DNA of 55,970 nucleotides from a bacterium (lineage in GTDB: Bacteria > Patescibacteriota > Minisyncoccia > UBA6257 > 2-01-FULL-56-20): contig JAJYDL010000001.1 in NCBI GenBank assembly GCA_021777495.1, positions 1-55,970 of the forward strand. Direction: 5' to 3'. The position numbers and the translations under genes were made by a program. A model generated the notes under the pieces. The model saw nothing but the letters and a program-made list of their open reading frames with translations, was not told where the DNA came from and made no database searches. Below are positions 31,425 to 53,600 of the stretch, in pieces (the stretch's first letter is position 1; the number at the start of each line of letters is the position of its first letter).

Positions 31425-33293
31425 CTACCAGTACTGCGCGGGGCTCTTCACGCCAACGAACGTGTTCTGTCCGGTGTACGCACCCGAAAGCTGGATGGTG
31501 CTCGGCACCGCGATACCCCAGAAGGTGGATCCCGTGCTCGGCGATGATGTTGCGATCGACTTGGGAATATGGATCGGCACAAGCGTGCCCGGATTCGTAA
31601 GGAGCGCGGCACCCGAACCGTAGGCGACGGACGACGTCGCGTACTGTATCTGCCCCACGGGAATGGTCGATGTGGTCGAAACGGCGCAGCTCGGATAGGT
31701 GGTACACATATTCGCACCGTACAGGGTTTCATTAAGACCGACGTTTCCCGTCGATGCAAGGATCGTGGACGTAGCAAGCGTCGGCGTGCTCGACCCCGGG
31801 CTCAATCCTCCGAAGTTGATGGCGGGCGTATCGAGCTGTGCCGCAAGGAAGCTTGCGACCTCGTTGCCGGTTGCGGCTTCCGTGAGAGGGCTCGATGAGC
31901 CGTTGTGGTTCGTCGCCTGCGCGCTCACGAGCCAGTTCTGGTTGTAATACTGCGTGTCGCTCGCGGTCGTGCCGTCCGTGGGATCCGCGACATACCACAG
32001 CGGGAAATAGCAGGTCCACGTTGCGCTGATGGAGCTCGAGCCGTTGCACGATCCCGTGTCCTGCGTGCAGGTGACGGGCCACGTGGACGACCCCACCGCA
32101 TTCGGATAGCAGTTATCGGGATTGTAATTCGGCCCCGTCTGGCACGATGCCTGGCCGATACCCGAACGATACACGTTGATGATGGCGGAAGTGATCTCCT
32201 GTCCCCCGGAAATCGTCTGACAACTATTGTCGTCCGAAACCGTGAACTTTACCGCAAACCCGTTCGTCTGTCCTCCCGGCACCGTAAGCGCGAGCGGATT
32301 CGTGGTTCCGTCGTTATTCAAAAGGCTGATGCTTGAAGAAGCGATCGTAGGCGCGACGTTGTTTATCGCGTACGTGGAGGTCGCCCCTTCCGCCCCGCCC
32401 GACGCGGGAAGCCCGTGCTGGTCCACGACATACCCATAGGAAGAATAGGTTCCGTCGGGACGCGGCAACGGGGTCGTGTATGAGCAGGTGGGATTGAGGG
32501 TTGTCGTCGCGGAAGTGCAGTACGTCCCCGCAGGACCGCAGGCCGAACCCGTAAAGTCGTTCGCCTTGCAGACGAAGAGCTGGATGGTATCGGTGGCCCC
32601 CGTGAATGTGTCGCTGTCCGATGCGACCGCCGTCCAGCTGATGTTCGTCCCGGGATTCACCGGACCGGTATTCGACAGGGAAGTGAACGCGGGGGGATGG
32701 TTGACCACGAAGGGCGACCCCGTCGTATAGGTCGCGTTGCACTTTGCTCCTCCAAAGTTGTTGTCGCAGATCCACGCATACCACGAATCGAACTGCGGAT
32801 CGCTGCTCGAGGCGGTATAGGTCGTGGTTGCGGTACCCGTACTCGGCGTGACGGCGGATACGCCCCACTGATTGACGGTGCCTCCGCCGCATGTGGGCGG
32901 CCCTCCCGCCGTACCGGGAGTCGGCGTGCTCGTGGACTTACAAAGGAGGAGGTAATAGCTGTCGTTATTGGGGTCGGTTGCCACGGCGTACCACGTCACC
33001 TTACTCCCCACGTTCGTCGGCGCGGTGGTGGTGGACACCGGATTCTCGTATGCGTTCGTCGTCCAGTTCGGCGGCGTGTTGAGCACCGTCACCGTCGTCG
33101 TTGCCGTGCTTTGTGCGAAGGTAAAGCGGGCATGATAGAGAGCGCCTGTCGCCCAGAAGTTCACGATGATGGCGGCGGCGGCCATAAAGATGCCCGAAAG
33201 GATCACGGCCACGGTCACGCGGCCACGCACATCCCGGACCTGTTCCTTCCACCATGCGATCCAACGTACGATCATGTAGGGATTTTTATTCAT
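31425..33293 (-). CDS. large secreted T/S-rich surface protein, C-terminal tail type II (..YTGQNTFVGVKSPAQYW)
   Basis: 622 aa with an N-terminal TM/signal anchor. The C-terminal region of about 130 aa is homologous to that of 37462-39519. Alternative start ATG 33275. Confidence 0.85.
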   Translation of the reverse strand: MNKNPYMIVRWIAWWKEQVRDVRGRVTVAVILSGIFMAAAAIIVNFWATGALYHARFTFAQSTATTTVTVLNTPPNWTTNAYENPVSTTTAPTNVGSKVTWYAVATDPNNDSYYLLLCKSTSTPTPGTAGGPPTCGGGTVNQWGVSAVTPSTGTATTTYTASSSDPQFDSWYAWICDNNFGGAKCNATYTTGSPFVVNHPPAFTSLSNTGPVNPGTNISWTAVASDSDTFTGATDTIQLFVCKANDFTGSACGPAGTYCTSATTTLNPTCSYTTPLPRPDGTYSSYGYVVDQHGLPASGGAEGATSTYAINNVAPTIASSSISLLNNDGTTNPLALTVPGGQTNGFAVKFTVSDDNSCQTISGGQEITSAIINVYRSGIGQASCQTGPNYNPDNCYPNAVGSSTWPVTCTQDTGSCNGSSSISATWTCYFPLWYVADPTDGTTASDTQYYNQNWLVSAQATNHNGSSSPLTEAATGNEVASFLAAQLDTPAINFGGLSPGSSTPTLATSTILASTGNVGLNETLYGANMCTTYPSCAVSTTSTIPVGQIQYATSSVAYGSGAALLTNPGTLVPIHIPKSIATSSPSTGSTFWGIAVPSTIQLSGAYTGQNTFVGVKSPAQYW

Positions 33294-33335
33294 TATATCC
33301 CATGTTGTCCACAGAAAAAGGCGGGGTTATCCACA
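33292..33335 (-). promoter_or_regulatory. promoter region with paired DnaA-box-like repeats
   Basis: TATAAT (minus strand, 33297-33292). TTGTCCACA (33305-33313) and TTATCCACA (33327-33335) lie 22 nt apart start to start. Confidence 0.5.
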
Positions 33336-33375
33336 CCCTATGCAAATCCTTCCTTTTCCGTCCGGGAATCCCCCT

Positions 33376-34578
33376 TTATTTGTATCTGATGGCCTCGAGC
33401 GGACTTATGGATGAAGCCCTGCGCGCCGGGAAAATCCCCGTAATGAAGCCTACGATCGCCGAGAAAAGCGTGATAAACCCGAGGAATGTGAGGGGAAAGG
33501 CGAAAAGCGCCACCGCAGCGCCGCCGAAGTGCGTTGCCAATAGATTCAATAGATAATTGATGATGAGACCTCCGGCGATGCCTATGGCCATCCCCGTCAT
33601 GCCCCCCAGGAACCCGACCACGACCGCCTCCGCGAGGAAAAGGAACTGGATATCGCGGGGCGAACCGCCGATCGTACGCATGACGCCGATCTCCCCCGTG
33701 CGCTCAAGGAGCGTCACCGTCATGGTATTCACCATGCCGATCGCCGACACGATGAGCGCGATGCCGCCGAACCCTGCAAGGACCCATTGGACGCCGGTGA
33801 AGATCTGATTCGCCTGATCCACCGTCTTCGAGAGCGCCGACACCACATACCCATCCTTCACGATGGCGGCCTGGACGCCGCCGAGATTGCCGCTCGCGTT
33901 CACGCGCACCTGGACCTTGTCGTATTGCGGGATCCCCACCTGCGAGGAAAGCGTGGCAAGGGGAATCATCGCATAGATGGAGGCGCTGTCGTTCGTCACC
34001 CCCGTCACGGTGAAGTTCCCGTTCAGGGGCACCTGCTCGCTCTGCCCCCCGCCCTGCGCCTGCGTCACGATCCGGAACGATACCGGCTTCCCGATGATCG
34101 CCTTCGGATCGCTCACGCCGAAAAGCTGCAGCGCGGCGCTCGAAAGGATGACGTCGTTCGCATCCGAAGGCTGGTCGCTGAACTGGCTTCCTGCCGCCAT
34201 GGAAATGCCCGCGTATTTGAAATACGACGCCTGCGCCCCCTCGAGGTCCGTGTTCGCCGAAAGGCCGTTGTAGGTGATGAGCGACTGGAAGGTCGCGAGC
34301 GGCGATACGTCCTGGACGTTCGGGATCGCCTTGAACTTCGCAAGCGCGTTGTCGTCGAGCGTCACGGCGCTCGTTGCCGGCGGCGTAACGGTGAGGCTGA
34401 GGAGCGTATCGCCGAACACGATCTTCTCGAGCAGGATGTTCTGAAGGCCGAAACCGAGACCTACGAGCATCACGACCGCGGCGGTACCCACGCCCATGCC
34501 GAGGATCGTAAGCCATGTCCTTGCGGGATTGGTCTTGAACATCCTCGTGGAAAGCTTCAATGAATCGGCGACTCTCAT
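33376..34578 (-). CDS. ABC transporter permease, MacB/FtsX-like
   Basis: The N-terminal TM helix is followed by an extracytoplasmic domain of about 230 aa and then a C-terminal 3-TM FtsX domain. Confidence 0.88.
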   Translation of the reverse strand: MRVADSLKLSTRMFKTNPARTWLTILGMGVGTAAVVMLVGLGFGLQNILLEKIVFGDTLLSLTVTPPATSAVTLDDNALAKFKAIPNVQDVSPLATFQSLITYNGLSANTDLEGAQASYFKYAGISMAAGSQFSDQPSDANDVILSSAALQLFGVSDPKAIIGKPVSFRIVTQAQGGGQSEQVPLNGNFTVTGVTNDSASIYAMIPLATLSSQVGIPQYDKVQVRVNASGNLGGVQAAIVKDGYVVSALSKTVDQANQIFTGVQWVLAGFGGIALIVSAIGMVNTMTVTLLERTGEIGVMRTIGGSPRDIQFLFLAEAVVVGFLGGMTGMAIGIAGGLIINYLLNLLATHFGGAAVALFAFPLTFLGFITLFSAIVGFITGIFPARRASSISPLEAIRYK

Positions 34579-34597
34579 GGTAATAGTATAGAACGGT

Positions 34598-35908
34598 TCA
34601 GAGATACATGCCCTGCCCGATGAGCTTCTCGAGATACCAGCTCACGTGCCGCGCGGTATCGGGATCGAGGCCCATGCCGTCGCCCTCAAAAGGAGACTTG
34701 AGGCGGCGACGGAAATCCTCGGACTGGATGAATCCCCGGATGCGGAACTTGAGGAGCTCATCCATGCGCGCAATGCGCTCCGGCGGGATGCGGAACCCGC
34801 ACTCCCGCATGAGATCCTCGCGCACCTCGGCGATGCGGTCCCCCTGGCGCAGCGAGGCCACTTTTGCGGTGAAGTTATCCCGGTATGCGCGGATGTCCCG
34901 CGCCTCTTTGAGCACGATATTCAGCTTTTCTTCGAACATTTCCGCACGATGACGATCGATCTCCGGACCTCCTTCGTCCACGGACCTCGTAAGCCTGTCC
35001 ACAAACCCTTCATCCGTGAGCTTTCCGTCGATGAACATCCCGACCGTCCGTTCCAGCTGTTCGATCTGGTCGAAACCGATGTCCTGGGTGAGGAAATTCA
35101 CGACGCTCTTCACCCGCAGCTCCTCCGGCGACGCATACGGATAGATGCGCGCAAGCTTCTCGATCTCGGAAAGGATCGACGTCCCGGGGTCCACCTGCTT
35201 GATCTGTTTCTTCTCCGGGTTCACCACCTCGCGCTCCACGCCGCCGTCTTTCATGTGATAGACGCGGTGCGCATAGGGCAGCAGCTTCGCGTCATGGGTG
35301 ACGAGGATGACCGTCTTCTGCTGCTTCATGTTGATCTCCTCGAGCATGCCCATCACCTGGTCCGCCGACACGCTGTCGAGGTTGCCGACCGGTTCGTCGG
35401 CGAAAAGGATCTCCGGGTCGTTGATGAGCGAGCGCGCAACGGCGACGCGCTGCTGCTGGCCTCCCGAAAGATCCGTCGAGCGCTTGTGCGCCTGCTGATC
35501 CACGCCGAACTGTTTGAGCAGCTTCATTGCCCGCGCATACCGCTCCGCGGGCGGCACGTTTGCGAAGATGAGCGGGAGCGCGACGTTGTCGATCACGCTG
35601 AGCGACGGAATGAGGTTGAACGACTGGAAGATGATGCCCACCGTCTCCCTTTGGAACCGCACCATATCCTTCACGCCGTACTTATAGGGATTCTCCCCCT
35701 TCACGAGGATCTCCCCGGACGACGGCGGAAGAATGCCGAGCAGGCTGTAGAGCAGCGTCGATTTCCCGCAGCCCGAAGGGCCGAACAGGATGATATATTC
35801 CTTGGGATAGATCTCCAGGGTCTCCCCGCGCAGGGCATTGTATTCGTTCGACTTGCCCTGATTGTAGATGACTTTGATGTTATTTACCTTGATGATCGGC
35901 TCGAGCAT
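34598..35908 (-). CDS. ABC transporter ATP-binding protein (MacB/LolD type) with a C-terminal extension of about 210 aa
   Basis: Walker A GPSGCGKST, signature LSGGQQQR, Walker B ILFADEP. A helical extension of unknown family follows residue 225. Confidence 0.9.
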   Translation of the reverse strand: MLEPIIKVNNIKVIYNQGKSNEYNALRGETLEIYPKEYIILFGPSGCGKSTLLYSLLGILPPSSGEILVKGENPYKYGVKDMVRFQRETVGIIFQSFNLIPSLSVIDNVALPLIFANVPPAERYARAMKLLKQFGVDQQAHKRSTDLSGGQQQRVAVARSLINDPEILFADEPVGNLDSVSADQVMGMLEEINMKQQKTVILVTHDAKLLPYAHRVYHMKDGGVEREVVNPEKKQIKQVDPGTSILSEIEKLARIYPYASPEELRVKSVVNFLTQDIGFDQIEQLERTVGMFIDGKLTDEGFVDRLTRSVDEGGPEIDRHRAEMFEEKLNIVLKEARDIRAYRDNFTAKVASLRQGDRIAEVREDLMRECGFRIPPERIARMDELLKFRIRGFIQSEDFRRRLKSPFEGDGMGLDPDTARHVSWYLEKLIGQGMYL

Positions 35909-35918
35909 GGTGGTTCTC

Positions 35919-37400
35919 TTATTTTTTGGCGCCCCCCGAGAAGTTTCCGAGCCATCCGAACGTTCCCTGGAAGTTCTGCAGGATGATGTCCACGATGCTT
36001 TTCTGCTGCTGCGGCGTGAGGAGCACGTAATCCTCCGAGCTTGTCGTATTCCCGTCCACGTCGGTACAGGTAACCCAATATTTATAGACCGTCGCGGGAG
36101 AGAATGTCGTGACGACCTCCACGTGCTTCGTGACGGGGACCGTCTCCGCCGTCGTCGTCACGACATCCGCGCCGGCCCCGCTCGAATACGAAAGGAAGCA
36201 CGTCGCGGGCTCGTCGGTCGCCCACGAGATGACCGTCTGCACGGTGGTATCCTGTCCGGGGTAGAGCGTGGAATCGTTGCTCACCTGCGAGATCACCGGA
36301 GGATAGAGGTTCTTCGTCGTCACAAAATAAACGGGGTCGCTCTTCACCGTATCCCCCGCCTGGTTCTGGGCGACAATGACGGCCGAATAGCGCGTCTGAT
36401 AGACGAGCCCCGAGATCTGGAGAATGTGCGTCGTGAGGTACGATGGGTCGCCGATCGAAAGCGATTTATTGGTCGCCATGTCGGTGTACACGATCTCCCC
36501 CGCCGACGGCATGGGCGTGCCCCAGCTTATCGTGACATCATGCTCGCCGACCGTCACCACGTGAGGATTGATGATCTGCGGCAGAACGGATTTCGTCGTG
36601 AAGGTGAGATCCGGGCTTTCTCCCGGCGCGCCGATCCCTCCCGCGCGCGAGGACACCATGTAGTGATATTCCGTGGAAGGCGAAAGTCCATAGATCGTCA
36701 CCGTGTGCGTCTTCCCCTGCCCGTTCTGGTCCGTTTCCTGCCGCGGATAAGGGTTCGCGCTCGAAGGGTTGTACTCCGCGGCAGAAGCAATGAACACGGT
36801 GCCATCCGCGCTCTGGTCGGTGTTCCAGGTCACCGTCACGTTGTCCGTGCCGATCGTGAGCTGGGGCACGCCCAGAATGTTCGGCGGCCCGATGTTCGCT
36901 TTGGCCTGCTGGTTCAGCGCCCCCGCAATCGCCTCGAGTGCCTGGGTGCTCGTGATCTGCTGGATGATCGAGAGCGCCTTTGCCGAAAGCTGCTGCTGCT
37001 GCGGATTCGTGATGCTCGAGAGGGTCGAAAGATCGACGGTGCTCGAGGTCGTGAATGTATAATCGCCGGAGACGTGCTGGTTGCCGTTCGCGTCGGTGGA
37101 ACGGATGCGGAAATAGTACGTCGTCCCCGGATCGAGGTTCGGAATGACGACCGAGTGCTGGGTGCCGAGGGGCCCCTGATTTCTTATACCGCAGTAGTTC
37201 GTGTCCTGGCTGAAATTCACGAAACTGTCGGTGTTGGAGTCCGTGGTCCACGTGACCGTAGTCGAGGTCGCAGTCACGCCCGCAACGGCCACGTTCGAGA
37301 TGTTCGGCGACGTGTCCGCGAGCGCCCGCACGACGACCGCCGCGGACACAGCCGCGGCGCCCGCAAGGACCCCTATGGCGAACAGCGAGCGCGCGTTCAT
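35919..37400 (-). CDS. secreted protein with four FN3-like repeats
   Basis: Four repeats of the type TVTWTTD...Y.FRI.S.D..GN....DYTFTT. ATG 37400 (MNARSLF) lies 6 nt downstream of TGgTATCAT; the track start is 37418. Confidence 0.85.
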   Translation of the reverse strand: MNARSLFAIGVLAGAAAVSAAVVVRALADTSPNISNVAVAGVTATSTTVTWTTDSNTDSFVNFSQDTNYCGIRNQGPLGTQHSVVIPNLDPGTTYYFRIRSTDANGNQHVSGDYTFTTSSTVDLSTLSSITNPQQQQLSAKALSIIQQITSTQALEAIAGALNQQAKANIGPPNILGVPQLTIGTDNVTVTWNTDQSADGTVFIASAAEYNPSSANPYPRQETDQNGQGKTHTVTIYGLSPSTEYHYMVSSRAGGIGAPGESPDLTFTTKSVLPQIINPHVVTVGEHDVTISWGTPMPSAGEIVYTDMATNKSLSIGDPSYLTTHILQISGLVYQTRYSAVIVAQNQAGDTVKSDPVYFVTTKNLYPPVISQVSNDSTLYPGQDTTVQTVISWATDEPATCFLSYSSGAGADVVTTTAETVPVTKHVEVVTTFSPATVYKYWVTCTDVDGNTTSSEDYVLLTPQQQKSIVDIILQNFQGTFGWLGNFSGGAKK

Positions 37401-37461
37401 GTTGTTATGATACCACACGCCGCGGCGGCGTTCCGCGCCGCACCCATCCCTCCTTCGCTCT

Positions 37462-39519
37462 TTACGGCCACGGCAACGGGAGCTTCACGCCGACAAACGA
37501 ATTCATTCCCGTATATGTGGTCGCCATCTGTCCCGCGGGGATCGCGATGCCCCAATAGAACGTGGAGCTTTCCACCGTGGTCGTGGATACGGGCTTCGGA
37601 AGATCGATCGCCACCGTCGATCCCGGGTTCGGGAGCAGCGCCGTCCCCGACGCATAGGATATCGCGGAGGTCGCGAAATGCTGCTGTCCCACGGGAATGC
37701 TGAACGAGCTGTTCACCATGTTTGTGCCATAAAGATCCACGTTCATCGCAACGTTCCCCATCGACTGGATCACCGCCGTAGGGCCGAGGCTTGCGGTACT
37801 CGAGCCCTGCGTCAGATTGCCGTAATTTATCGTCGAGGTCGTTTCGAACGCGAGAAGCGAAAGCAGCGGCACGCCCGTCGAAGAGGCCGTGCCCGTGGCG
37901 CCCGCGGAGTCCACGGCGAGCATCGAGGCCGACCAGGAATCCCCCGCCCATGGCGTCGATGCGTCCGTCGGCTGGGCGAAATACCAGACGTGGAAACTGC
38001 AGGTTACGTTGCAGGATGTTCCCGCACAGCCGCTGAACGAACAGTCGCTCGGCGCACCTTGATAGCAATCGTTCGGATCGGGTGTGCATGCCGGCCCGAG
38101 GCTCGTGCGATAGAGCGTGCTCGTCACCGTCTGGATGTCGGTAAACCCGTTACCGTCGCTCACCGTTGCCGTGGCCGTGATGAGCGTCGTCGTCCCCTCG
38201 ATAAGGGCGATGCTCTGCCCCCCATTCAGGCTGACGGGGCCTATCGTCGGAGGAACATTTCCGATGGTGACTTCCGGATATGCGGCATAGGACGCAAACG
38301 GCGTACCGTTTGATTCCACGGCCCGGAAGCAGAACGTGGATCCTCCGGGCGCGCTGTTGTCGATGAGCGCGAAGTCCCACTTCCCGTCCTCTCCCGGAAG
38401 GATCGCGCCCTGCGAGTTCGTGAAGGTGTTCGCCTCCACATAGGTCTGATTCACGATGGTGTTTGTTCCGTCGACGGGATCGGTCGACGTAGGTACGAGC
38501 GGATCCCCGTTCGCGGGGGTCGGGTTGTTATAGAACTCGATATACCCCGTCGAGGTCGCCACATCGGCGTACGCCCCCGTCGGTGCCGCGCATGTTCCCG
38601 TTCCCATGTCGGCCATCTGCAATTTAAATGAGCGATTTCCCGCGGCGAGCTGGTTCGTCGCCACATTGACGAGCATGCGGAGGCGGAAAGGCGCCGTAAG
38701 CGATGCGAGCACCGTCGACGCGTTCTGCAATGCGAGCGGAGGCCCCACGCTCGCGCTGTCCGTATTCGAAAACCATCGGAATGCGTTCTGGCTGAACGTG
38801 ATCTGCGCTTTGAAGCTCACGATCTGCCCTATCCATGCACCGGACGCCGCCGCGGTGCCGACGGTCGAATAGGTCCCCGTTGCGTTCACCACCCGGTCCG
38901 CGCCGCTGTAGGTTGCGCGCGAACCGTGACTGCCGTTCGCGTTCGAAAAATCGTTTTCTTTGGTAAAGGAGTTGCTCCACGAAGAAAATGTTGTTTGCGC
39001 AATGATCGTGGTGGCCGCGAAAAGCAGTTCGTCCGGCTGGACCGTCGTGATTGCCGCTCCGTTCGTCGCCGTACCCGTACCCGCTGTCGATGTCGCTTGA
39101 TCAAGGGGGTTTACTGCCGATAATCCGCTGTATTCATAAATATGGAGGCCCAACTGCAGCGAAGATGCCGTAGTCACGGTAACCGCGGTAGGCTCGCCGG
39201 TTCCCGCCACCTTATAAAATATCGCCTGGCTCGGAGTTCCTGCGACGTTGAGCGCCACCGACCATCCGGACGGCACATTGATCCCGGTATTTCCGCCTGC
39301 GCCAAGTACGGCAATGAGGAGGTCGCCCGCGGTAGGCGTCGTCCCGAATGTCGCGGTCACGGTGTTCGCGCCGCCTCCCGCGCTCGTATTGCTCGCCGTC
39401 TGGATGAGCGTCGTCGTGGCGCGCGCGAAGGGCCACAGTACGAACACGCGGCTCACCGCGAGCCATGCGAGGAGCAGGCCGGCAAGGACTATGCCGAAAG
39501 AATAGATGCGGCGCATCAT
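37462..39519 (-). CDS. large secreted surface protein, one adhesin-type module plus C-terminal tail type II (..YTGMNSFVGVKLPLPWP)
   Basis: 685 aa with a signal anchor. Module motifs are FRWFSNTDS, FRLRM, FKLQM, FCFRAV and YAAYPEV. The C-terminus is homologous to that of 31425-33293. Confidence 0.85.
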   Translation of the reverse strand: MMRRIYSFGIVLAGLLLAWLAVSRVFVLWPFARATTTLIQTASNTSAGGGANTVTATFGTTPTAGDLLIAVLGAGGNTGINVPSGWSVALNVAGTPSQAIFYKVAGTGEPTAVTVTTASSLQLGLHIYEYSGLSAVNPLDQATSTAGTGTATNGAAITTVQPDELLFAATTIIAQTTFSSWSNSFTKENDFSNANGSHGSRATYSGADRVVNATGTYSTVGTAAASGAWIGQIVSFKAQITFSQNAFRWFSNTDSASVGPPLALQNASTVLASLTAPFRLRMLVNVATNQLAAGNRSFKLQMADMGTGTCAAPTGAYADVATSTGYIEFYNNPTPANGDPLVPTSTDPVDGTNTIVNQTYVEANTFTNSQGAILPGEDGKWDFALIDNSAPGGSTFCFRAVESNGTPFASYAAYPEVTIGNVPPTIGPVSLNGGQSIALIEGTTTLITATATVSDGNGFTDIQTVTSTLYRTSLGPACTPDPNDCYQGAPSDCSFSGCAGTSCNVTCSFHVWYFAQPTDASTPWAGDSWSASMLAVDSAGATGTASSTGVPLLSLLAFETTSTINYGNLTQGSSTASLGPTAVIQSMGNVAMNVDLYGTNMVNSSFSIPVGQQHFATSAISYASGTALLPNPGSTVAIDLPKPVSTTTVESSTFYWGIAIPAGQMATTYTGMNSFVGVKLPLPWP

Positions 39520-43317: not shown

Positions 43318-43888
43318 CCGAAATTTCTTTAACCGAAAGCTTCTTTCCCTCTCCCGGACGTTTCGCGGGCAATACGATGCGGAGCACGCCCCGTTCAAGG
43401 GATGCGTCCGCCTCTCCGGCGTCGAACGGCGCGGGGAGATATACTTTCCGATACCACCTCTTCCACTTCGTCTCCTGTTTCACGTACCTTCCTTTTTCGT
43501 CCCGGTCGCCGTCCTTCGCTTCGGAAAGCGGAGGCGGCGCAGGGCGTTTCTGTTCCGCTTGGATCGTAAGCGTGTTCTCCTCCTCGCTCATCACGATCTC
43601 AAGACCGTCCCTTGCGACACCGGGCAGCTGCGCCACAATGACCATCCGCGCATCGGATTGAAAGAGGTCGATATCGAGAGGCTCCATCCCGTCGGGCGGG
43701 ACGTTGTCCGCCGGGTCCACCGCGATGGACACCGGAGGGGTTCCGGGGCGCTGCGATTGATCGACGCGCTCGCCGGTCGCCTTGAACGACGCCGTCCTCG
43801 AGGTCGCGGATGGCGCCGGCGCGGCGGGAACCGCATCGGGATTCACTTCGTTCAATTTGCTTTCGAGCTTCTGGTAGAACGAGAGCAT
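43286..43888 (-). CDS. Hsp20/alpha-crystallin family protein with a Pro/Ala-rich N-terminal extension
   Basis: ACD pattern DLFQSDARMVIVAQLPGVARDGLEIVMSEEENTLTIQAE ... YRKVYLPAPFDAGEADASLERGVLRIVLPA. Confidence 0.85.
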   Translation of the reverse strand: MLSFYQKLESKLNEVNPDAVPAAPAPSATSRTASFKATGERVDQSQRPGTPPVSIAVDPADNVPPDGMEPLDIDLFQSDARMVIVAQLPGVARDGLEIVMSEEENTLTIQAEQKRPAPPPLSEAKDGDRDEKGRYVKQETKWKRWYRKVYLPAPFDAGEADASLERGVLRIVLPAKRPGEGKKLSVKEISDETPRDQAGK

Positions 43889-45620: not shown

Positions 45621-45632
45621 CTTATTATGGTA

Positions 45633-46061: not shown

Positions 46062-46074
46062 GCCGGGAAAACCG

Positions 46075-47187: not shown

Positions 47188-47225
47188 CGTATCATGCCCC
47201 GACGCGCCCTTTCAAGCCGGATGGC

Positions 47226-48359
47226 TTAGAAGGTCGGCGTTGCAACGTAGATCAGGTTGTTCGTGTAGTCGTTCGCGGCAGGCTGCAGCGTACCGATCTC
47301 GATGCGGTAGGCGACCTTCGCGGTGCCCACGTTCTGCGTCGTGCCGTCGGCGGGACCGTTCCATGCGAACACGGTGAGCGTGGATGTCGGATTGATGCTT
47401 CCGGCGTAGAGCGGCGTGCTCGTGCCGAAGCTCGGTGCGCCCACGAGAGAACTGCTTGCGTCATCGCTTGTCACGCCGAGATGGCCGTATGTCGCAGGCT
47501 GGTTGATGATGTTGCTCGGCGCAGCCCACGGACTCGGCGTGGACGTGGCGTTGCCGTTATCGAAAAGATGGATGGTGTTCCCCGTCTGGCTCGTAAGGTC
47601 CTGGTCCTCGTGGACCGTCACCGCAAAGCCGTTCGCGGCGTTCGTCGTCACATACAACTGCTGTCCAAGCTCGGCGTGGGTGTTCGGCGAGATGATGCCG
47701 AAGGGAACCGTGGTAGAAGTGGATGCCCCCGTCGTCGTCGCGCCGTTCCCGAGCGTCGTGGATGTCGCAAGCCCCGCCACCGTGAAGGTGAAGGTTGTGG
47801 CGACCGCAGCCGTCACATTGACCCCGTTCACGATCGCGACACGGGTTGCCGCGGAATTCGCCCCCGCCGCAACGTTTATCACATAGGATCCGGTGCTCGT
47901 CGGGTTCGTGATCGTATTATTCAAAACCTTAAGGGTGACCGTTCCTGCGGGGATGGTCGCACCGCCGCAGACGGTGAATACGAGCGAATTCGTGGTGGTT
48001 GCCAGGCTTACGTTGGTACCTCCGTTGCTGCAGGTATATCCGGCAATGGTCATTCCCGTGGAGGTAACATCCGCAATCACTACTCCTCCTACGTTGCCGA
48101 ATGCACTCGTCGTGGGATCGAATGTATAGGTGATCGTCTGACCGCTTACGGTACTCGTCGAATCGGTGAACGCTATTGTGTGGTTCGCCGCAAACCCCGG
48201 GCGGGAATCGGACAATGTGTCGCTCACTGAGGTAAGGCTCACCGCGTGGGCCGTGCTTATGAAGCGAAGCATCGTGCTCCACGAAACGAGGCTTACGATC
48301 AAGCCTGCCGCGACCGCGATTACGACATCACGTTTTATCATCGTCCTTTTGCTGAACAT
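47226..48359 (-). CDS. secreted protein, C-terminal tail type I (..DYTNNLIYVATPTF), WxL-analogous
   Basis: 377 aa with a signal anchor. The C-terminal domain (PFGIISPN...TNAANGFAVTV...YTNNLIYVATPTF) is homologous to the C-terminus of 50604-54749. Confidence 0.85.
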   Translation of the reverse strand: MFSKRTMIKRDVVIAVAAGLIVSLVSWSTMLRFISTAHAVSLTSVSDTLSDSRPGFAANHTIAFTDSTSTVSGQTITYTFDPTTSAFGNVGGVVIADVTSTGMTIAGYTCSNGGTNVSLATTTNSLVFTVCGGATIPAGTVTLKVLNNTITNPTSTGSYVINVAAGANSAATRVAIVNGVNVTAAVATTFTFTVAGLATSTTLGNGATTTGASTSTTVPFGIISPNTHAELGQQLYVTTNAANGFAVTVHEDQDLTSQTGNTIHLFDNGNATSTPSPWAAPSNIINQPATYGHLGVTSDDASSSLVGAPSFGTSTPLYAGSINPTSTLTVFAWNGPADGTTQNVGTAKVAYRIEIGTLQPAANDYTNNLIYVATPTF

Positions 48360-48410
48360 GGGATACTCTTTATTGAAAGAGGGGTTTGCTTTTTTATTCG
48401 ACTTGTATTC

Positions 48411-48457
48411 ATTCTATCACAACAGGTTGTCCCCATTACAAGGGGTACTTATCCACA
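48411..48457 (-). promoter_or_regulatory. promoter region with paired DnaA-box-like repeats
   Basis: TGaTAGAAT (-10 at 48416-48411, minus strand). TTGTCCCCA (48427-48435) and TTATCCACA (48449-48457) lie 22 nt apart start to start. Confidence 0.5.
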
Positions 48458-48489
48458 GGCACTGAAGAGCGTGCACACTCCGCCCGCGA

Positions 48490-49602
48490 TCACTTCTTTC
48501 TGAGATCGACCGTCCCCTCCGGACCGCTCCGCGGGGCGTGAGGATGAGGAGGCTCGTGCGGCGGTTTCGGCCCCGGAGAACCATACCGTCCCATTTCCCG
48601 TTCGAGCATCTTTTTCACGTAACGCCGGAGAAGTATCACGAATCCGCCGATCACAAGAAGCGCGATCGCACCGTCTTCCGCGAGCATTCCCACCGGCAAC
48701 ACCCAGAACGTGAGCGTCTGGGACACGCTCTTCGTTCCGTCCGTGCCGTACGCAAGAGTGACGACCGCAGTAAAACGCCCTATATCCCACAAATTTCCCG
48801 GTCCCTGCCATTCCTCGCTGAACTTGCGGCTGCTCGAAGGCAGCACGTACCCGAACGTCTGCTCCTGATTCACCGGAACCGTCCCCTCCTCCTTTCCAAA
48901 CGCGTTATAGATCTGGATCTCCCCTACCGGACGCACGTGAACGTTGCCCGTGTTCGCAAACACGAGATTGAAGTTCACGTCGGGTCTTTGATAGAACCCT
49001 TTGTCCGTGGAAAATTCCTGGATGTTCCCGGATTCTTTTATATCCCCCGATACCGTGACGAATATAAGCGCCGAGATGAAGCTCGATATGCCGATATGGG
49101 ACCCCGCCGGAGCGCCGGATTCCCCCGGCGGCTGCGTACCGATCAGGATGCCGGCGTAATGCCCTCCGGGGGATGCGTCCTTCGGCACGGCTATCGAGAA
49201 CGGAATGTCCGCCGCGCTTCCCGGCGGCACCACCGCGGTGGAAGACCCGAGCGTTATCCAGTTCGCGAGAGCGTCGGAATCTCCCGCGATCGCCGAAAGA
49301 TTTTTGAATGTGCCGTGGCCCTCCTGATCGGAGGGCGCAAACCCCATCACCGTCGCCACCACGGGAAGCGGTGCGGCGTTCGTGTTCACCACGCGGATAG
49401 AGCTCGCCCACGCATCGCCGGGCGACGCATTGAGCGTGAAGAACGGCGGCGTGATGGTGAGCGACGTCGCATCGGCCGACTGCGCGTCCGCGCGGGACAC
49501 GAAGCACGGCGCTCCCGCCGCGAGCGCGATAAGGACGAACATCGCGCCCGCCGCGGCGCGGCGCATCCCTCCGAACATCATCGTGCGTGCGCCGTTATTC
49601 AT
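48490..49602 (-). CDS. CscA/DUF916-DUF3324-like surface protein with C-terminal TM anchor (paralog 3)
   Basis: Signal peptide and the motifs GGHYAGILIG, NTGNVHVRPVGEIQIYNAFG and FWVLP followed by a TM helix. Pro/His-rich cytoplasmic tail. Confidence 0.8.
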   Translation of the reverse strand: MNNGARTMMFGGMRRAAAGAMFVLIALAAGAPCFVSRADAQSADATSLTITPPFFTLNASPGDAWASSIRVVNTNAAPLPVVATVMGFAPSDQEGHGTFKNLSAIAGDSDALANWITLGSSTAVVPPGSAADIPFSIAVPKDASPGGHYAGILIGTQPPGESGAPAGSHIGISSFISALIFVTVSGDIKESGNIQEFSTDKGFYQRPDVNFNLVFANTGNVHVRPVGEIQIYNAFGKEEGTVPVNQEQTFGYVLPSSSRKFSEEWQGPGNLWDIGRFTAVVTLAYGTDGTKSVSQTLTFWVLPVGMLAEDGAIALLVIGGFVILLRRYVKKMLEREMGRYGSPGPKPPHEPPHPHAPRSGPEGTVDLRKK

Positions 49603-50590
49603 GGTGGTGGGGATGCTTAAGGTCTATCACCTGTTTGTTCTTGAGGAGATGTTCGATGAGCTGGCGTCGACGATGATGCCGTTTCGCGTATTCGCGATGC
49701 AAGAACGATGCGGCCACGATCACCACAATGAGCAGCGTGATGAAGATTGCGAGCAGCTCCTTCCATGGAAGGATCCAGAAGATCGCCGTATCCGCAAGTT
49801 GCGCGTCCTGGGCCCCATAGGCCGCTTCGAGCCCTACTTTATATTCCCCCATACCGCCCGCTCCGTTCCATGAAGCGGTGAAGTTCTTGGTGTCTCCCGG
49901 TGCGATGGAGATTCCCTCCGGATTCACGGGCACCGATCCGAGGTCGTGTCCGATGCGGTCGTAGAATATCACGTCCCCGCCCGGGTCCGAGGGTACATCG
50001 CCCGTATTCTTGATGGCGTAGTCCACCACGACCGGGAACCCCGCGGACACCCTCTTTTCCGGACCGAAACTCACAAGCTGAAGCTCTTCTTTAAGGTCGG
50101 ATATGACCGTGAAGTTCACAAGCGCCTGGGGCGCTCCGTCGAGATGCTGCTCGGCTTCGGCCCTCGTCCCTCCTTCCACGAACGCCACGACGGCATGATA
50201 ATCGCCCGCCGTCGCATAGGGATTGATCGTCACGCTCATCGGAATTGTCTTCGTCTCTCCGGGAGCGAAGATCATCGCCCCGCGCGAAATCCCTATCCAA
50301 TCGGCCAGGAACGCCGGCCGGTCCGAGCTCGCGGGATCCGTAAAGGGCTGCGTTCCGCTCGCCGTGAGTTCGTACACCGACGCGAAAACATTGAGCTGTC
50401 TGCCGCTCGTGTTCGTGACCGTGAGCGTGTAATTGAACATGTCGTCCGGGACCCCGCTCGTGTCGATCACCGCGGGCGCGACCGTAAGGTCCGCGGCATG
50501 CGCGACAGGCGCGGCGCGCATCCACGCCGCGGCGGAAAACGCCATGATGGCGGCGAGGAGCAGGATCGGATGTGATATGCGCTTCATCAT
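49595..50590 (-). CDS. CscA/DUF916-DUF3324-like surface protein with C-terminal TM anchor (paralog 4)
   Basis: Signal peptide and the motifs AGDYHAVVAFV, NTGDVPSDPGGDVIFYDRIG and FWILPW followed by a TM helix. His-rich tail. 8-nt overlap with paralog 3. Confidence 0.8.
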   Translation of the reverse strand: MMKRISHPILLLAAIMAFSAAAWMRAAPVAHAADLTVAPAVIDTSGVPDDMFNYTLTVTNTSGRQLNVFASVYELTASGTQPFTDPASSDRPAFLADWIGISRGAMIFAPGETKTIPMSVTINPYATAGDYHAVVAFVEGGTRAEAEQHLDGAPQALVNFTVISDLKEELQLVSFGPEKRVSAGFPVVVDYAIKNTGDVPSDPGGDVIFYDRIGHDLGSVPVNPEGISIAPGDTKNFTASWNGAGGMGEYKVGLEAAYGAQDAQLADTAIFWILPWKELLAIFITLLIVVIVAASFLHREYAKRHHRRRQLIEHLLKNKQVIDLKHPHHHE

Positions 50591-50603
50591 ATTCGTTGCG
50601 TCA

Positions 50604-53600
50604 TTAGAATACCGGGGTCGCGATATAGATCACGTTGTCGTTATAGTTGCCGTTCACCTGCGTCGGGCCCGCCTGTACGCGGTATACGACATTGATCGTG
50701 CTCGTGGCGGGCCCTCCCGAATAGCCGATCTCCGCCGGCGTCGACGTGAGCGCCGCATACGAATCATCCGCGGCGAACCGCGTCGATCCGCCCGAAAGCA
50801 CGGGGCTCCCGGGATGATATCCGTAACAGGCGGTGGAAGTCGCGGTGCAGGCCGATGACCATGGCAGCGGACTTCCGTTCGTCGCATCCACTCCCGGCAA
50901 GACATAACCGCGCCCGTTCATAAGCGGCGCATCCTGAAGTGCGTAGAGTTCGAATCCGTTCGGCGCGTCGGTCGAGATGAGGAGCTGCTGCGCCGCCATC
51001 GAACTCGTGGCGATCGTGAGCGTGCCGAACGAGATCCCGGCGGGCGTGGACGATGCGGTCGTCACAATGCCGTCGGTCGAAGTGCCCTGCGGCATGCCGC
51101 TTACCGTGAAGGTGAGGAGCGCGCCCTCTACCGCAAGGCTCGGATACGACGAAGTGCCGTAGAGCGCCACGGGCGATCCGGTCCCGTTGTTCACGAGACG
51201 GAAGAAATAGGTGGCGTTCGTCGTTGCGCCGTTCCCCACGATCGTGAATTCGTATTCGGTGACGGCTCCCGCCTGCTGCGTGAAGGTGGACGAGCTTATC
51301 CCCGACGTGTTGTGCGTGCCGCATCCCGGTCCCACGCCGCTCGTACAGGCGCTCGAATCCGAAAGTACCGCAGTGGAGATCACCGCATTGTCCGTGCCCC
51401 CCGTCGATGTGGCATAGCACCACTGCGACGAAGAGGTGCAGCTCCCCACCTCCGCCACGGATCCCACCCCGGACGAAAAATTGCTGTAGGTGGAATATTG
51501 AAGGGCGAACTTCACATTGCTCCCGGAAACATTGTTCGTCTCGGCCACCGCCACCCGGAGCTTGATAGTGCTCCCGTTCTCCACCGTCGAGGGCGCGACG
51601 TTCTCCCCCGCAAGCGGGATCACCGGCGTTTCATCGTTCGCGTCGCTGTAAAATCTCCAGTTCGCCGACTCCGGATTGAACGGCGCCGTTGTCACTGCGG
51701 GATAATACACATACGAGTCGAGCGGCGTGCCGTCGCTCTTCGCCATGCGGAAGCAATATGATGCCGAGGAGCTCGTACTGTTGTACTGAAGCACCCAGTC
51801 GTATTCGATGTTGTCTCCGATAAGCGATCGGTAAGGGTTCGCCGCGGACGGGTTTGCGTCCGCATATACGCCGTCGCGATTCGACACGGAAAGCAGCAGG
51901 GTGGTGAGCGGCGTGCCGTTCGTAACGCCCGCATTCGCATACCCGTTCCACGGTCCCGCGCCGCCGATCGCGCCCACATCGCTCCATGACGAAATCGCGC
52001 TGCACGATGTCGTCATCACCCCGTACTGCAGTTTGAACGCCTGCGTCGACGTGGGAAGGACCGCGCCGCCGAGCGTCACCGCCATGCGGAGACGAAGCAC
52101 GCTCCCGGACGTCGGCGGCGAGTCGGCCGCGGTGATCGCCATGTTCTCCCCGAGCGTCGACGTGCCCGCGGGCCACGCCGCGGTCGGCGTGAGCGCATTC
52201 GTATTCACATACCAGCGGTAATAGTTCTCGGCGAAGGTGGAACTTGCCGCCACCACGTTGATCTGGGGATAGACCGAGTAGGTGCCGATCGACGCCCCGT
52301 TGTTGGTCGCACGGAAATAATATGTCTGCCCGAATGTTGCGCCTTCCGTCGCCTGGATGTTCCACTCGAGCTCCGTGAATTGATTCGTATTGATCGCGAT
52401 CACGGGCGAAGGGGTCGTACTTTCCAGCATGAAGCCGCTCACGAACGTTGCCGCCGCCGGAGTAAGAAGGCTGTGTGTCGGATCGAGATCCGCGAAATAT
52501 CCCGAAGGGCACTCGCGGAACGCCGCGGCGATCGTGGAGCAGGTGGGATCGACGGGCACCGGCGTCCATGGCCCCGCGGTGGATGTCGCATATTCCAACC
52601 GGAACGCGGCGCTCGCGGCGGTGTTCCCGTTGTTCGAAAATTCCATGCGCAAGCGCACGCTCGTGTCTTCGGTCGTGCTCGTCGGCGTCGTTTCGGCGGC
52701 GCGCCAGGTCGCCGAAGGGACCGTGTCCACCTCCGGATAATTCACATACCCGTCGAGCGAGGCGCCCGCTCCGGTCATCATGCGGAAACAATACGCCGCG
52801 CCCGACGGCGCATCGTTGTCCTGCACCACGAAATCCCATTCTCCCGTGCCGTTCGCGGGAATGGGGTTCGGGTTCGCCGGCGAGGGATTCTGCTCTATGT
52901 ACGATTCGGGGACGGTGGAACTCGAGAGGAGCGTCGCGGTGAGCGTCGTGCCGTCGGTCGTGCTTGCGTTGCTGTAGCCGCGCCACGGCGCGGAAGATCC
53001 GAAGGCGCCCACATCCGCAAAGTTCGCCGAAGGAACCGCGCTGCACGATGCCGCGGTTCCCTTCGGGGCATACTGCAGTTTGAATGATTGCGTGGAGCTC
53101 GGAAGCGCCGCGCCGCCCACCTCGATATTCATCACAACCCTCACGACCTCCCCTGAAACGGTCCCTGTCGCAGCCGCATCCTGCGCAGCGAGCGAAGACG
53201 TCGGCTGGACCGCATTGATATTTTTATATATCTGGAAATCCTGCTGGGTAAGGGTTGCGGAAGGCATGGTGGTGAACCCTCCGAGTCCCACCCCCGCCGC
53301 GGGGCTCACGGTCCCCGCGCCCACCGTGACGTCGGTCGAGGGGTTCGCGATCGTAAGCTCGAAGGTCTGGCCTGCGGGAGAGGACGAGGCGATGTTCACC
53401 TGGGCGTAGATGCAGACGTTCGCGGTGCCCACGGGCATCGTGCCCGTCACGGTCGCCTGTTCCGATGCGTTGAAGGATCCCCCCGTCGCGTTGAAGAGGG
53501 TCGCTCCTGCGGGGATGCTCGAGGTGGCGCAGGTGGTCGCCGCCTGATAGTAGAGGGAAAGGTTCCCGAGATAGGCGTTCGCGTTCAGGGTGCCCGATGC

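What the first reader, a model, noticed from the sequence alone, without database searches (positions are those of the whole stretch)
31425..51050. Two subfamilies of conserved C-terminal tail domains on four secreted proteins (WxL-analogous anchoring module?)
Type I tails end the proteins at 47226 and 50604 (...LQPAANDYTNNLIYVATPTF and ...PTQVNGNYNDNVIYIATPVF). Both are preceded by FG.(I/L)....L(Y/L)(V/I)(T/S)T(N/D)A(A/P)NGF. Type II tails end the proteins at 31425 and 37462 (...GAYTGQNTFVGVKSPAQYW and ...TTYTGMNSFVGVKLPLPWP). Both are preceded by IN(F/Y)G.L..GSST and (F/Y)WGIA(V/I)P. The pattern is a domain of about 130-150 aa that opens with an FG motif and closes with a G/N-Y-x-x-N strand at the extreme C-terminus. 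Firmicute WxL domains and usher-type pilin-like beta-sandwiches have the same layout, but the W-x-L signature itself is absent. This suggests a distinct wall- or partner-binding module.
Basis: partly seen in the sequence, partly recalled or inferred. Interest (0 to 1): 0.75.

Follow-up and report, generated by a model that had tools for sequence, protein, structure and literature searches.

The report
New surface-docking tails in CPR bacteria
Four secreted proteins of an uncultured ultra-small (CPR/Patescibacteria) bacterium end in two previously undescribed tail domains that sit, gene for gene, where the WxL cell-surface docking domain sits in Gram-positive bacteria. They lie next to membrane-anchored relatives of the WxL-interacting protein, so they are most likely docking modules that hold adhesin-like proteins on the cell surface.

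Summary
C377 and D1381 share a C-terminal domain of about 170-190 aa (type I, BLASTP E 2e-12). A622 and B685 share a tail of about 150 aa (type II) within a 420-aa homologous region (E 4e-35).

- **New families.** Neither tail matches Pfam, NCBIfam or any PDB sequence. Type I has 1,556 clusters at 50% identity. Type II was found at 108 metagenome places.
- **C-terminal position.** The hit ends within 3 residues (type I, 124/124) or 6 residues (type II, 112/112) of the protein's end.
- **Anchors.** The four TM-anchored paralogs are homologs of Firmicute WxLIP (DUF916+DUF3324): hhalign 98.9%, E 1.7e-17. Their best PDB match is EfmWxLIP1.
- **Synteny.** Gene order is conserved across CPR: T1-anchor-anchor-T1-anchor, and T2-FN3-ABC-FtsX-T2-anchor. 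No canonical WxL domain occurs in 158 CPR loci.
- **Homology to WxL unproven.** Type I is marginal (P about 0.03-0.05); type II shows none. No relationship between type I and type II is shown. The type II model is unusable (pLDDT 49).

Best reading: these are WxL-equivalent docking tails for WxLIP-like anchors, a new variant of a known system. Binding is inferred from gene context, not shown.

The parts
50604..54749 (-). D1381: large (1381 aa) secreted protein carrying a type I tail. It has an N-terminal TM/signal segment, a Gly-rich region and repeated beta-rich modules also found in B685 and in the truncated gene at 54746-55963.
   Evidence: Translation. Repeats by BLASTP. No Pfam hit. T1 HMM matches residues 1212-1381.
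50607..51116 (-). Type I tail domain (T1) of D1381, residues 1212-1381, ending at the last residue.
49595..50590 (-). anc331: WxLIP-like anchor with a signal peptide, two beta-sandwich domains, a C-terminal TM helix and a basic tail.
48490..49602 (-). anc370b: WxLIP-like anchor.
   Evidence: Pfam WxLIP_PGBD is its only hit (E 0.053). hhalign.
47226..48359 (-). C377: small (377 aa) type I carrier. It has a signal peptide, a ~140-aa N-terminal domain shared with the dockerin protein at 43926-45620, and the T1 tail.
   Evidence: N-domain E 6.8e-10 against p564. It is the typical architecture of the family.
47229..47795 (-). Type I tail domain (T1) of C377, residues 189-377.
   Evidence: AF2 model pLDDT 82, pTM 0.81. 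HMM match. Alignments.
46075..47187 (-). anc370a: WxLIP-like anchor.
   Evidence: Pfam WxLIP_PGBD E 2.1e-5, 25 bits against a cut-off of 27.3. hhalign against Firmicute WxLIP.
37462..39519 (-). B685: larger type II carrier (685 aa).
   Evidence: T2 HMM matches residues 541-682.
37465..37899 (-). Type II tail domain (T2) of B685.
35919..37418 (-). Secreted protein with fibronectin-III / purple-acid-phosphatase-N-like repeats. It is a conserved member of the type II module.
   Evidence: Pfam. Conserved position.
34598..35908 (-). ABC ATPase with a ~200-aa C-terminal extension. It is a conserved member of the type II module.
   Evidence: Pfam. Synteny.
33376..34578 (-). MacB-type permease (MacB_PCD + FtsX). 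It is a conserved member of the type II module.
   Evidence: Pfam. Synteny.
31425..33293 (-). A622: type II carrier (622 aa). It is the most conserved carrier class, with most homologs 600-650 aa long.
31428..31895 (-). Type II tail domain (T2) of A622, residues 467-622.
   Evidence: The AF2 model is poor (pLDDT 49).
30346..31350 (-). anc334: WxLIP-like anchor of the type II module, 74 bp downstream of A622.
   Evidence: Its family against the type I anchors: hhalign 99.0%, E 2.7e-18. It lies next to a T2 gene in 72 of 76 loci.

Best explanation
Types I and II are two previously undescribed C-terminal domain families of CPR/Patescibacteria. They play the part that the WxL domain plays in Firmicute WxL (Csc) clusters.

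Proposed mechanism:
1. The carrier proteins are exported by Sec. This is inferred from their N-terminal hydrophobic segments.
2. The C-terminal tail docks non-covalently onto a membrane-anchored WxLIP homolog encoded next to it. There are three anchors for the type I pair and one for the type II pair.
3. Docking is most likely by the anchor donating a beta-strand that completes the tail's beta-sandwich, as proposed for WxLIP:WxL. The tail may also contact peptidoglycan.
4. This leaves the variable N-terminal, adhesin-like domains displayed on the cell surface.

Shown: the domains exist, the families are large, the domains are strictly C-terminal, the anchors are WxLIP homologs, and the gene order is conserved.
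Inferred: the physical tail-anchor interaction, its strand-insertion mode, any wall binding, and the adhesin role.

Whether the tails are extremely divergent WxL homologs or unrelated replacements is open. My estimate is about 45% homolog for type I and less for type II.
For: 1. **The anchors are WxLIP homologs.**
   - hhalign of 150 CPR anchors against 7 annotated Firmicute DUF916+DUF3324 proteins: 98.9%, E 1.7e-17, 247 columns spanning both domains. The four window paralogs alone give 96.3%, E 1.8e-9.
   - The anc334 family against the type I anchors: 99.0%, E 2.7e-18.
   - Pfam WxLIP_PGBD is the commonest hit among 114 anchors (36 members, best E 1.9e-8).
   - The best PDB sequence match of the anchor profile is EfmWxLIP1, 9i25_C and 9i1y_A, E 3e-6.
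2. **Type I synteny.** In 78 genome loci, 124 full T1 domains were found.
   - 116 end on the last residue and all end within 3 residues of it.
   - The nearest anchor is on the same strand in 122 of 123 cases, with a median gap of 93 bp.
   - The core order is T1-anc-anc-T1-anc.
   - Carrier lengths are bimodal, about 340-450 aa and 790-3054 aa, like small and large WxL proteins.
3. **Type II synteny.** In 80 metagenome loci, 112 T2 ORFs were found.
   - All hits end within 6 residues of the C-terminus.
   - The order is T2-FN3-ABC-FtsX-T2-anchor.
   - The anchor lies within 200 bp in 72 of 76 cases.
4. **No canonical WxL domain.** A WxL HMM built from 126 true WxL sequences finds nothing in the window or in the 158 CPR loci (best E 0.1-0.4). 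So T1 and T2 are the only candidate partners.
5. **Layout.** Each tail opens with an FG motif and ends in Y-x5-[Y/F]-x3-5-P, compared with Y-x5-W-x5-P in WxL. hhalign places FG, the G-[F/W]-x-[V/L] hairpin and the C-terminal strand of T1 and WxL in the same order.
6. **Published model.** WxL clusters are defined as one or more WxLIP plus small and large WxL proteins, with a WxLIP strand completing the WxL sandwich (PMC9772566, PMC10599100). A WxL:WxLIP entry, 9i25, is in the PDB.
7. **Local context.** The same locus holds two cohesin (TM-anchored) and dockerin (secreted, C-terminal) pairs, which use the same display logic. A Mur ligase in the window suggests the organism makes peptidoglycan.
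Against: - No direct evidence of binding. The argument rests on gene context plus homology of the anchors only.
- Sequence similarity of the tails to WxL is not significant.
  - T1 against a deep WxL profile gives P=0.046. The real score of 20.4 compares with a maximum of 20.0 in 30 block shuffles.
  - The T1 HMM scores only 5 of 126 WxL proteins above 8 bits, against 0 in reversed or shuffled sets.
  - T2 shows no signal.
- The T1 model has no PDB match with E<=1e-3, and the solved WxL chain 9i25_A is not in its top 50. I could not confirm that 9i25_A is in the Foldseek library.
- The type II model is unusable.
- Small type I carriers have an extra ~140-aa N-terminal domain that small Firmicute WxL proteins lack.
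- The type II module contains an ABC/MacB transporter that canonical WxL clusters do not have.
- The loci were selected through the tails, so the converse (every CPR WxLIP-like gene has a T1 or T2 neighbour) was not tested.
Confidence: 0.65

Rival explanations
1. The tails are acceptor domains of a donor-strand-complemented fibre, a pilus-like polymer. Small type I proteins would polymerise by inserting their conserved N-terminal strand (SDTLSDS motif) into the T1 domain of the next subunit. The large type I protein would be the tip adhesin, and the WxLIP-like anchors would act as membrane base or chaperone.
For: - The weak Foldseek matches of both models are dominated by donor-strand-complemented subunits: CS20, EcpA, FimG/FimF/FimA, PapE, TasA fibre, and archaeal 0406 and cannulae filaments.
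- An SD[TS]-x-x-[DNS][ST] motif just after the signal peptide is present in 36 of 106 small carriers (strict regex) and in 0 of 18 large carriers.
- The same N-terminal domain occurs on a dockerin-ended protein conserved nearby.
- WxLIP is itself proposed to donate a strand to WxL.
- One of 114 anchors weakly hits PapD_N, and anc370b weakly hits a fimbrial chaperone model (E 0.004).
Against: - All structural matches are non-significant (E>1e-3, TM 0.3-0.42), and the type II model has pLDDT 49.
- No usher or PapD-type chaperone is present.
- The strict motif is seen in only a third of small carriers.
- No multimer prediction could be run.
Confidence: 0.12
2. The tails are independent cell-wall- or glycan-binding modules, functionally like WxL binding to peptidoglycan or like a CBM. 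They would not contact the anchors. The synteny would reflect only co-regulation of surface proteins.
For: - WxL domains are reported to bind peptidoglycan on their own (PMC9772566).
- Weak Foldseek matches include the N-terminal domains of GH123 and GalNAc-ases and some CBMs.
- A Mur ligase in the window suggests a peptidoglycan wall.
Against: - The one-to-one subfamily pairing is tighter than co-regulation needs. T2 pairs only with the anc334 type and T1 with the other three anchor types, on the same strand, with median gaps of 82-93 bp across very divergent CPR lineages.
- The anchors are homologs of a protein whose documented role is to bind WxL.
Confidence: 0.12
3. The tails are C-terminal sorting or secretion signals, in the manner of the T9SS CTD or PEP-CTERM/LPXTG-type signals. 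They would be recognised and possibly removed by the neighbouring ABC/MacB machinery.
For: - The position is strictly at the extreme C-terminus.
- A MacB-type ABC transporter is conserved inside the type II module.
Against: - The type I module has no transporter.
- The carriers have N-terminal Sec-type segments.
- The domains are large folded units of 150-190 aa. T1 models at pLDDT 82.
- There are no NCBIfam or Pfam sorting-signal hits.
- No sortase-, exosortase- or PorU-like gene was seen among the locus genes scanned.
Confidence: 0.06

Closest known systems
WxL domain (Pfam PF13731) of Firmicute Csc/WxL clusters (CscB/CscC; small and large WxL proteins)
   Same: - Extreme C-terminal position on secreted proteins.
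- Carried by both short and very long multidomain proteins in one cluster.
- Encoded next to WxLIP-type anchors.
- Beta-rich, with an FG motif near the start of the domain and a final strand Y-x5-aromatic-x3-5-P.
- In the T1 model, an N-terminal strand is followed by a long irregular linker, as described for WxL.
   Different: - There are no W-x-L motifs. T1 has G-F-x-V and Y-x-A. T2 has F-x-G, and its W-G-I is elsewhere.
- No Pfam hit, and profile-profile similarity is not significant.
- Short type I carriers have an additional N-terminal domain.
- The host phylum is CPR, not Bacillota.
- No LPXTG partner protein was seen.
WxLIP (DUF916/PF06030 + DUF3324/PF11797 + TM helix); PDB 9i1y and 9i25
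   Same: - The four anchored paralogs share the architecture: signal peptide, two Ig-like domains, a C-terminal TM helix and a basic tail.
- They are homologous over both domains.
   Different: - They are highly divergent. The window proteins score below Pfam's cut-off (25 bits against 27.3).
- The conserved Firmicute motif NQIDKxxxYFDLK is not kept.
- There are three to four paralogs per locus instead of the usual one.
Cohesin-dockerin surface display
   Same: - A C-terminal docking module on a secreted protein is paired with a membrane-anchored receptor.
- Two such pairs lie in the same locus.
   Different: - Unrelated folds and sequences.
- The tails have no Ca-binding dockerin repeats.
Chaperone-usher pilins and TasA-type fibres (donor-strand complementation)
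   Same: - They are the weak best structural matches of both models.
- The proposed mechanism also relies on a partner supplying a missing strand.
   Different: - The matches are not significant.
- There is no usher or periplasmic chaperone.
- The envelope is presumably monoderm.

Membership tests
WxL domain (PF13731) | Two conserved W-x-L motifs, the second within the last ~10 residues (Y-x-x-x-L-x-W-x-L-x-x-x-P) | tested here: not met
   In 14 true WxL domains, W120, Y213, W219 and L221 are invariant. T1 has G-F-x-V and D-Y-x-x-x-L-x-Y-x-A-x-P. T2 has Y-T-G-Q-N-T-F-x-G-V-x-x-P. Only the Y, the aromatic position and the P are kept.
WxL domain (PF13731) | Match to the family profile (Pfam HMM or profile-profile) | tested here: not met
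   - No PF13731 hit at E<=10 for the 4 proteins, 24+18 close homologs or 125 diverse T1 proteins.
- hhalign against a 126-sequence WxL profile: T1 P=0.046, T2 P=0.35.
WxL domain (PF13731) | C-terminal domain of secreted proteins, on both small and large carriers | tested here: met
   124 of 124 T1 hits end within 3 residues of the C-terminus, and 112 of 112 T2 hits within 6. Carrier lengths are bimodal.
WxL domain (PF13731) | Fold equal to solved or predicted WxL (for example 9i25_A) | tested here: inconclusive
   9i25_A is not among the top 50 Foldseek hits of the T1 model (pLDDT 82), and no hit has E<=1e-3. Whether 9i25_A is in the Foldseek library is unknown. The T2 model is unusable.
WxL domain (PF13731) | Non-covalent binding to peptidoglycan | not testable with these tools
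   Needs biochemistry.
WxL gene cluster (Hassan et al. 2023: at least 1 WxLIP and at least 2 WxL proteins within 4 genes) | At least one full-length WxLIP (PGBD+HBD+TM) | tested here: met
.
WxL gene cluster (Hassan et al. 2023: at least 1 WxLIP and at least 2 WxL proteins within 4 genes) | Two canonical WxL proteins adjacent | tested here: not met
   No WxL-HMM hit in the window or in 158 CPR loci. Two T1 or two T2 carriers occupy those positions instead.
WxLIP (for the four anchors) | DUF916-like plus DUF3324-like beta-sandwiches followed by a C-terminal TM helix | tested here: met
   - hhalign 98.9%, E 1.7e-17 over 247 columns.
- Best PDB sequence hit is EfmWxLIP1.
- TM helix and basic tail read.
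- The Pfam gathering cut-off is not reached by the window copies (25 against 27.3 bits).
Chaperone-usher pilin | Incomplete Ig fold plus dedicated PapD-type chaperone and usher genes | tested here: not met
   Only weak fold matches (TM 0.3-0.42, E>1e-3). No usher or chaperone family hit in the locus.
Dockerin and other known C-terminal sorting modules (LPXTG, PEP-CTERM, T9SS CTD) | Match to the corresponding Pfam or NCBIfam models | tested here: not met
   No hits for the four carriers.

The most novel reading that the evidence does not exclude
The type I module may be a monoderm, usher-independent pilus-like assembly that is widespread in CPR bacteria.
- The large T1 protein would be a tip adhesin with an acceptor groove only.
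- Small T1 proteins would polymerise by donating their conserved N-terminal strand to the next T1 domain.
- WxLIP-like proteins would be the membrane base that supplies the last strand.

If so, WxL/WxLIP clusters in general would be reinterpreted as donor-strand systems, and this would be a main host-attachment organelle of episymbiotic CPR cells.
Probability: 0.12. Interest if true: 0.85.

Novelty: new variant of a known kind. Interest (0 to 1): 0.62.

Why it matters
CPR/Patescibacteria are thought to live attached to host cells. How they display adhesins on their surface is largely unknown.

- **A conserved machinery.** This locus shows a widely conserved CPR surface-display system built on homologs of the Firmicute WxL-interacting protein. 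It uses two large partner-domain families that are absent from Pfam and NCBIfam. Type I alone has about 1,500 clusters at 50% identity.
- **Annotation handle.** The tails give a way to annotate thousands of 'hypothetical' CPR surface proteins, including giants of up to about 3,000 aa.
- **Wider reach of the WxL/WxLIP principle.** WxL domains are reported as more than 91% Firmicute (PMC9772566). No paper in the searched library links WxL or DUF916 to CPR.
- **Testable pairs.** The locus provides defined tail-anchor pairs for structural and binding experiments.

Tried and rejected
- **Single-sequence and family scans.** Pfam and NCBIfam scans and PDB phmmer of the carriers gave nothing. PDB profile searches with T1 and T2 alignments also gave nothing.
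- **hhalign of T1 against T2.** Shallow profiles aligned only the FG motif (P 0.047). Deep profiles gave P 0.013, but 8 of 40 block shuffles score as high. I rejected 'one domain, two subfamilies' as shown.
- **hhalign of T1 and T2 against WxL.** I used 14 and then 126 true WxL sequences, with reversed and shuffled controls. The result is marginal for T1 and null for T2.
- **Structure.** The T2 AF2 model failed (pLDDT 49). Its Foldseek hits are therefore only anecdotal.
- **OCR'd CscB alignment.** The alignment from Siezen 2006 was too garbled to use directly. One fragment served as a tblastn bait to fetch real WxL clusters from plasmids.
- **The search for related loci.** Narrower alignments A4 and A7 worked.
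- **Representatives search.** It lists only the best 150 hits, so the distant tail of the T1 family, where any bridge to WxL might sit, could not be inspected.
- **Source of 9i25.** Literature searches did not find the paper behind PDB entry 9i25.

Full report
**Setting**

The window has about 60% G+C and corresponds to a whole 55,970-bp contig held in public collections. A locus 98% identical at the type I tail comes from a 'Candidatus Parcubacteria' MAG (L007). The closest named protein hit is from a Minisyncoccia MAG. So the organism is a CPR/Patescibacteria bacterium.

From about 28.2 kb to the contig end, every gene is on the minus strand, and most intergenic gaps are -8 to 130 bp. Upstream lie housekeeping genes, including a Mur ligase.

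**Observation**

- BLASTP gives C377 against D1381 E 1.9e-12 over the last ~190 residues.
- A622 against B685 gives E 3.9e-35 over ~420 residues, which is more than the tail.
- HMMs place type I (T1) at residues 189-377 and 1212-1381.
- HMMs place type II (T2) at residues 467-622 and 541-682.
- No other ORF in the window carries either domain.

**The tails are real, large families that are not in the domain libraries**

- T1 has 26 close relatives by word-based search.
- The exhaustive profile search finds 1,556 representative clusters at E<=1e-3, of which 981 are at E<=1e-10.
- The typical member is a 340-400-aa protein with T1 as its last ~200 residues.
- T2 has 16 close relatives, and 108 metagenome places encode a relative, of which the best 80 were kept.
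- There is no Pfam, NCBIfam or PDB-sequence match for the window proteins, for close homologs or for 125 diverse T1 proteins.
- AlphaFold2 gives a confident all-beta model for T1 (pLDDT 82, pTM 0.81).
- The T2 model is unusable (pLDDT 49).

**The key to the locus is the 'four anchored paralogs'**

- anc370a hits Pfam WxLIP_PGBD (DUF916) at E 2e-5, just under the cut-off.
- I fetched genuine WxL clusters from Bacillus, Listeria, Enterococcus and Melissococcus plasmids and compared profiles.
- The four window anchors against seven annotated DUF916+DUF3324 proteins give 96.3%, E 1.8e-9.
- 150 CPR anchors give 98.9%, E 1.7e-17 over 247 columns spanning both domains.
- The anc334 subfamily is homologous to the others (99.0%, E 2.7e-18).
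- Among 114 CPR anchors, WxLIP_PGBD is the commonest Pfam hit (36 members).
- The anchor profile's best solved-structure match is EfmWxLIP1 (9i25_C and 9i1y_A, E 3e-6).
- Like WxLIP, the anchors have a signal peptide, two beta-sandwich domains, a C-terminal TM helix and a basic tail.

**Synteny**

Type I, in 78 genome loci found through T1:
- 73 loci encode at least one anchor.
- There are 124 full T1 domains. 116 end on the last residue and all end within 3 residues of it.
- Carriers fall into classes of about 340-450 aa and 790-3054 aa.
- The nearest anchor is on the same strand in 122 of 123 cases, at a median gap of 93 bp.
- The recurrent order is T1-anchor-anchor-T1-anchor, exactly as in the window: D1381-anc331-anc370b-C377-anc370a.

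Type II, in 80 metagenome loci found through T2:
- All 112 T2 hits end within 6 residues of the protein's C-terminus.
- 76 loci have an anc334-type anchor. It lies within 200 bp of a T2 gene in 72 of 76 cases, always on the same strand.
- The order T2(~800 aa)-FN3-ABC-FtsX-T2(~620 aa)-anchor recurs. It is the same as B685-fn499-ABC-FtsX-A622-anc334 in the window.

An HMM built from 126 true WxL domains finds nothing in the window or in any of the 158 CPR loci. T1 and T2 therefore occupy the positions that small and large WxL proteins occupy in Firmicute clusters. Those clusters are defined as at least one WxLIP plus two WxL proteins (PMC10599100; PMC9772566).

**Are the tails WxL homologs?**

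The layout is suggestive.
- True WxL domains have an FG near the start.
- They have a hairpin ...V-S-D-x-R-G-x-x-x-G-W-x-L.
- They have a last strand Y-x-S-T-L-T-W-x-L-x-D-x-P.
- T1 has ...I-P-F-G-T-L..., then L-x-V-T-T-N-A-x-N-G-F-x-V-T-V, then D-Y-T-x-T-L-T-Y-x-A-T-P.
- T2 ends Y-T-G-Q-N-T-F-x-G-V-x-x-P, with the same Y+6 aromatic and +12 proline spacing as WxL.
- hhalign aligns the three T1 and WxL motifs in the same order.

The statistics do not carry it.
- T1 against WxL gives P=0.03-0.05. The real score is 20.4, against a maximum of 20.0 in 30 block shuffles and 11.8 for the reversed profile.
- The T1 HMM scores 5 of 126 WxL proteins above 8 bits, against none in reversed or shuffled sets.
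- T2 is indistinguishable from controls.
- T1 against T2 gives P=0.013, but 8 of 40 block shuffles reach that score.

Structure does not settle it either.
- The T1 model has no PDB match at E<=1e-3.
- Its weak best matches (TM 0.30-0.42) are chaperone-usher pilins, EcpA, the TasA fibre and GH123 N-terminal domains.
- A solved WxL chain exists (9i25_A), but it is not among the top 50 hits. I could not verify that it is in the Foldseek library.
- Homology is therefore open. Functional equivalence is the better-supported claim.

**Mechanism**

For Firmicutes, the published model is that a WxLIP hairpin becomes a strand that completes the WxL sandwich next to its N-terminal strand, while WxL also binds peptidoglycan.

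By transfer, I propose that the T1 and T2 tails dock on their cognate anchors in the same way and so display the variable N-terminal parts.
- D1381 carries repeated beta modules also present in B685 and in the truncated gene at the contig end.
- Homologous large carriers reach 3,054 aa.
- The MacB-type ABC transporter and the FN3 protein fixed inside the type II module have no counterpart in canonical WxL clusters. They may assemble or actuate that complex. This is speculation.
- Two cohesin (TM-anchored) and dockerin (C-terminal, secreted) pairs in the same locus show that 'C-terminal docking module plus membrane receptor' is the design principle of this gene neighbourhood.

**Rivals**

These are a donor-strand fibre, autonomous wall-binding modules, and C-terminal sorting signals. 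They are weighed in the dedicated fields.
- The fibre idea is the most interesting. It rests on non-significant fold matches and on an N-terminal SD[TS]xx[DNS][ST] motif found in 36 of 106 small and 0 of 18 large carriers.

**Novelty**

No paper in the searched library connects WxL, DUF916 or WxLIP with CPR/Patescibacteria. I rate this a new variant of a known kind: a WxLIP-based display system with two new partner-domain families, widespread in CPR.

Noticed in passing
window 41488-43398 (-) and 43926-45620 (-): This is a cohesin-dockerin pair. p636 has an N-terminal cohesin (Pfam E 5e-12), Big_13 domains, a C-terminal TM helix and a charged cytoplasmic tail. p564 ends in a dockerin (E 9e-7) and shares its N-terminal ~160-aa domain, including the post-signal SDT(I/L)xDS motif, with the small type I carrier C377 (BLASTP E 6.8e-10). 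Dockerin-ended p564-like proteins recur downstream of the type I module in at least 10 CPR loci.
   Followed up: partly
window 28179-29150 (-) and 29179-30336 (-): A second cohesin-dockerin pair lies directly downstream of anc334. One protein is 323 aa with a cohesin-like N-terminus (E 1.3e-4, just below the cut-off) and a C-terminal TM helix. The other is a 385-aa secreted Cys-rich/Big_6 protein ending in a dockerin (E 1.3e-9).
   Followed up: partly
window 33376-35908 (-): A MacB-type ABC transporter sits here: a permease with MacB_PCD+FtsX, and an ATPase with a ~200-aa C-terminal extension. Together with a 4x FN3-like secreted protein (35919-37418), it is invariably embedded between the two type II carrier genes across 80 metagenome loci. 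Its role is unknown.
   Followed up: partly
window 54746-55963 (-): This ORF's listed start (55963) lies 7 bp from the contig end, so the gene may be truncated. Its product is 64% identical to residues 341-678 of D1381 and contains the repeat also found in B685. Its stop overlaps the start of D1381 by 4 bp, and it has no T1 or T2 tail.
   Followed up: no
window 39563-41491 (-): A 642-aa protein with an N-terminal TM segment and very long Ser/Thr/Ala/Pro-rich low-complexity stretches. It has no family hit. Its stop overlaps the start of the cohesin protein gene by 4 bp.
   Followed up: no
window 50604-54749 (-), residues ~97-330; also 43926-45620, residues ~297-320: There are long Gly/Ala/Thr-rich tracts (GGGGGAAGTT...) in D1381 and a poly-Gly run in p564. 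They may be flexible stalks or beta-helical regions.
   Followed up: no
window 47226-48359 (-), residues ~38-55, and homologs: A conserved motif lies immediately after the signal peptide of small type I carriers (consensus A-x-A-A-x-L-x-x-x-S-D-T-L-S-D-S...H-T-I-x-F-T). It is absent from large carriers. It is a candidate donor strand or processing site.
   Followed up: partly
L044, L045, L048, L058, L062, L078, L080 and many 'Saccharibacteria'-labelled loci: Several type I loci come from TPA assemblies labelled 'uncultured Gammaproteobacteria' or 'Candidatus Saccharibacteria'. Their gene content matches the Paceibacterota-type loci. The labels may be unreliable, or the module may be broader than Parcubacteria. 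This was not checked.
   Followed up: no
PDB 9i25 (chains A and C) and 9i1y: The PDB holds entries named 'WxL domain surface protein' and 'EfmWxLIP1', which look like a solved WxL:WxLIP complex. No paper describing them was found in the searchable library.
   Followed up: partly
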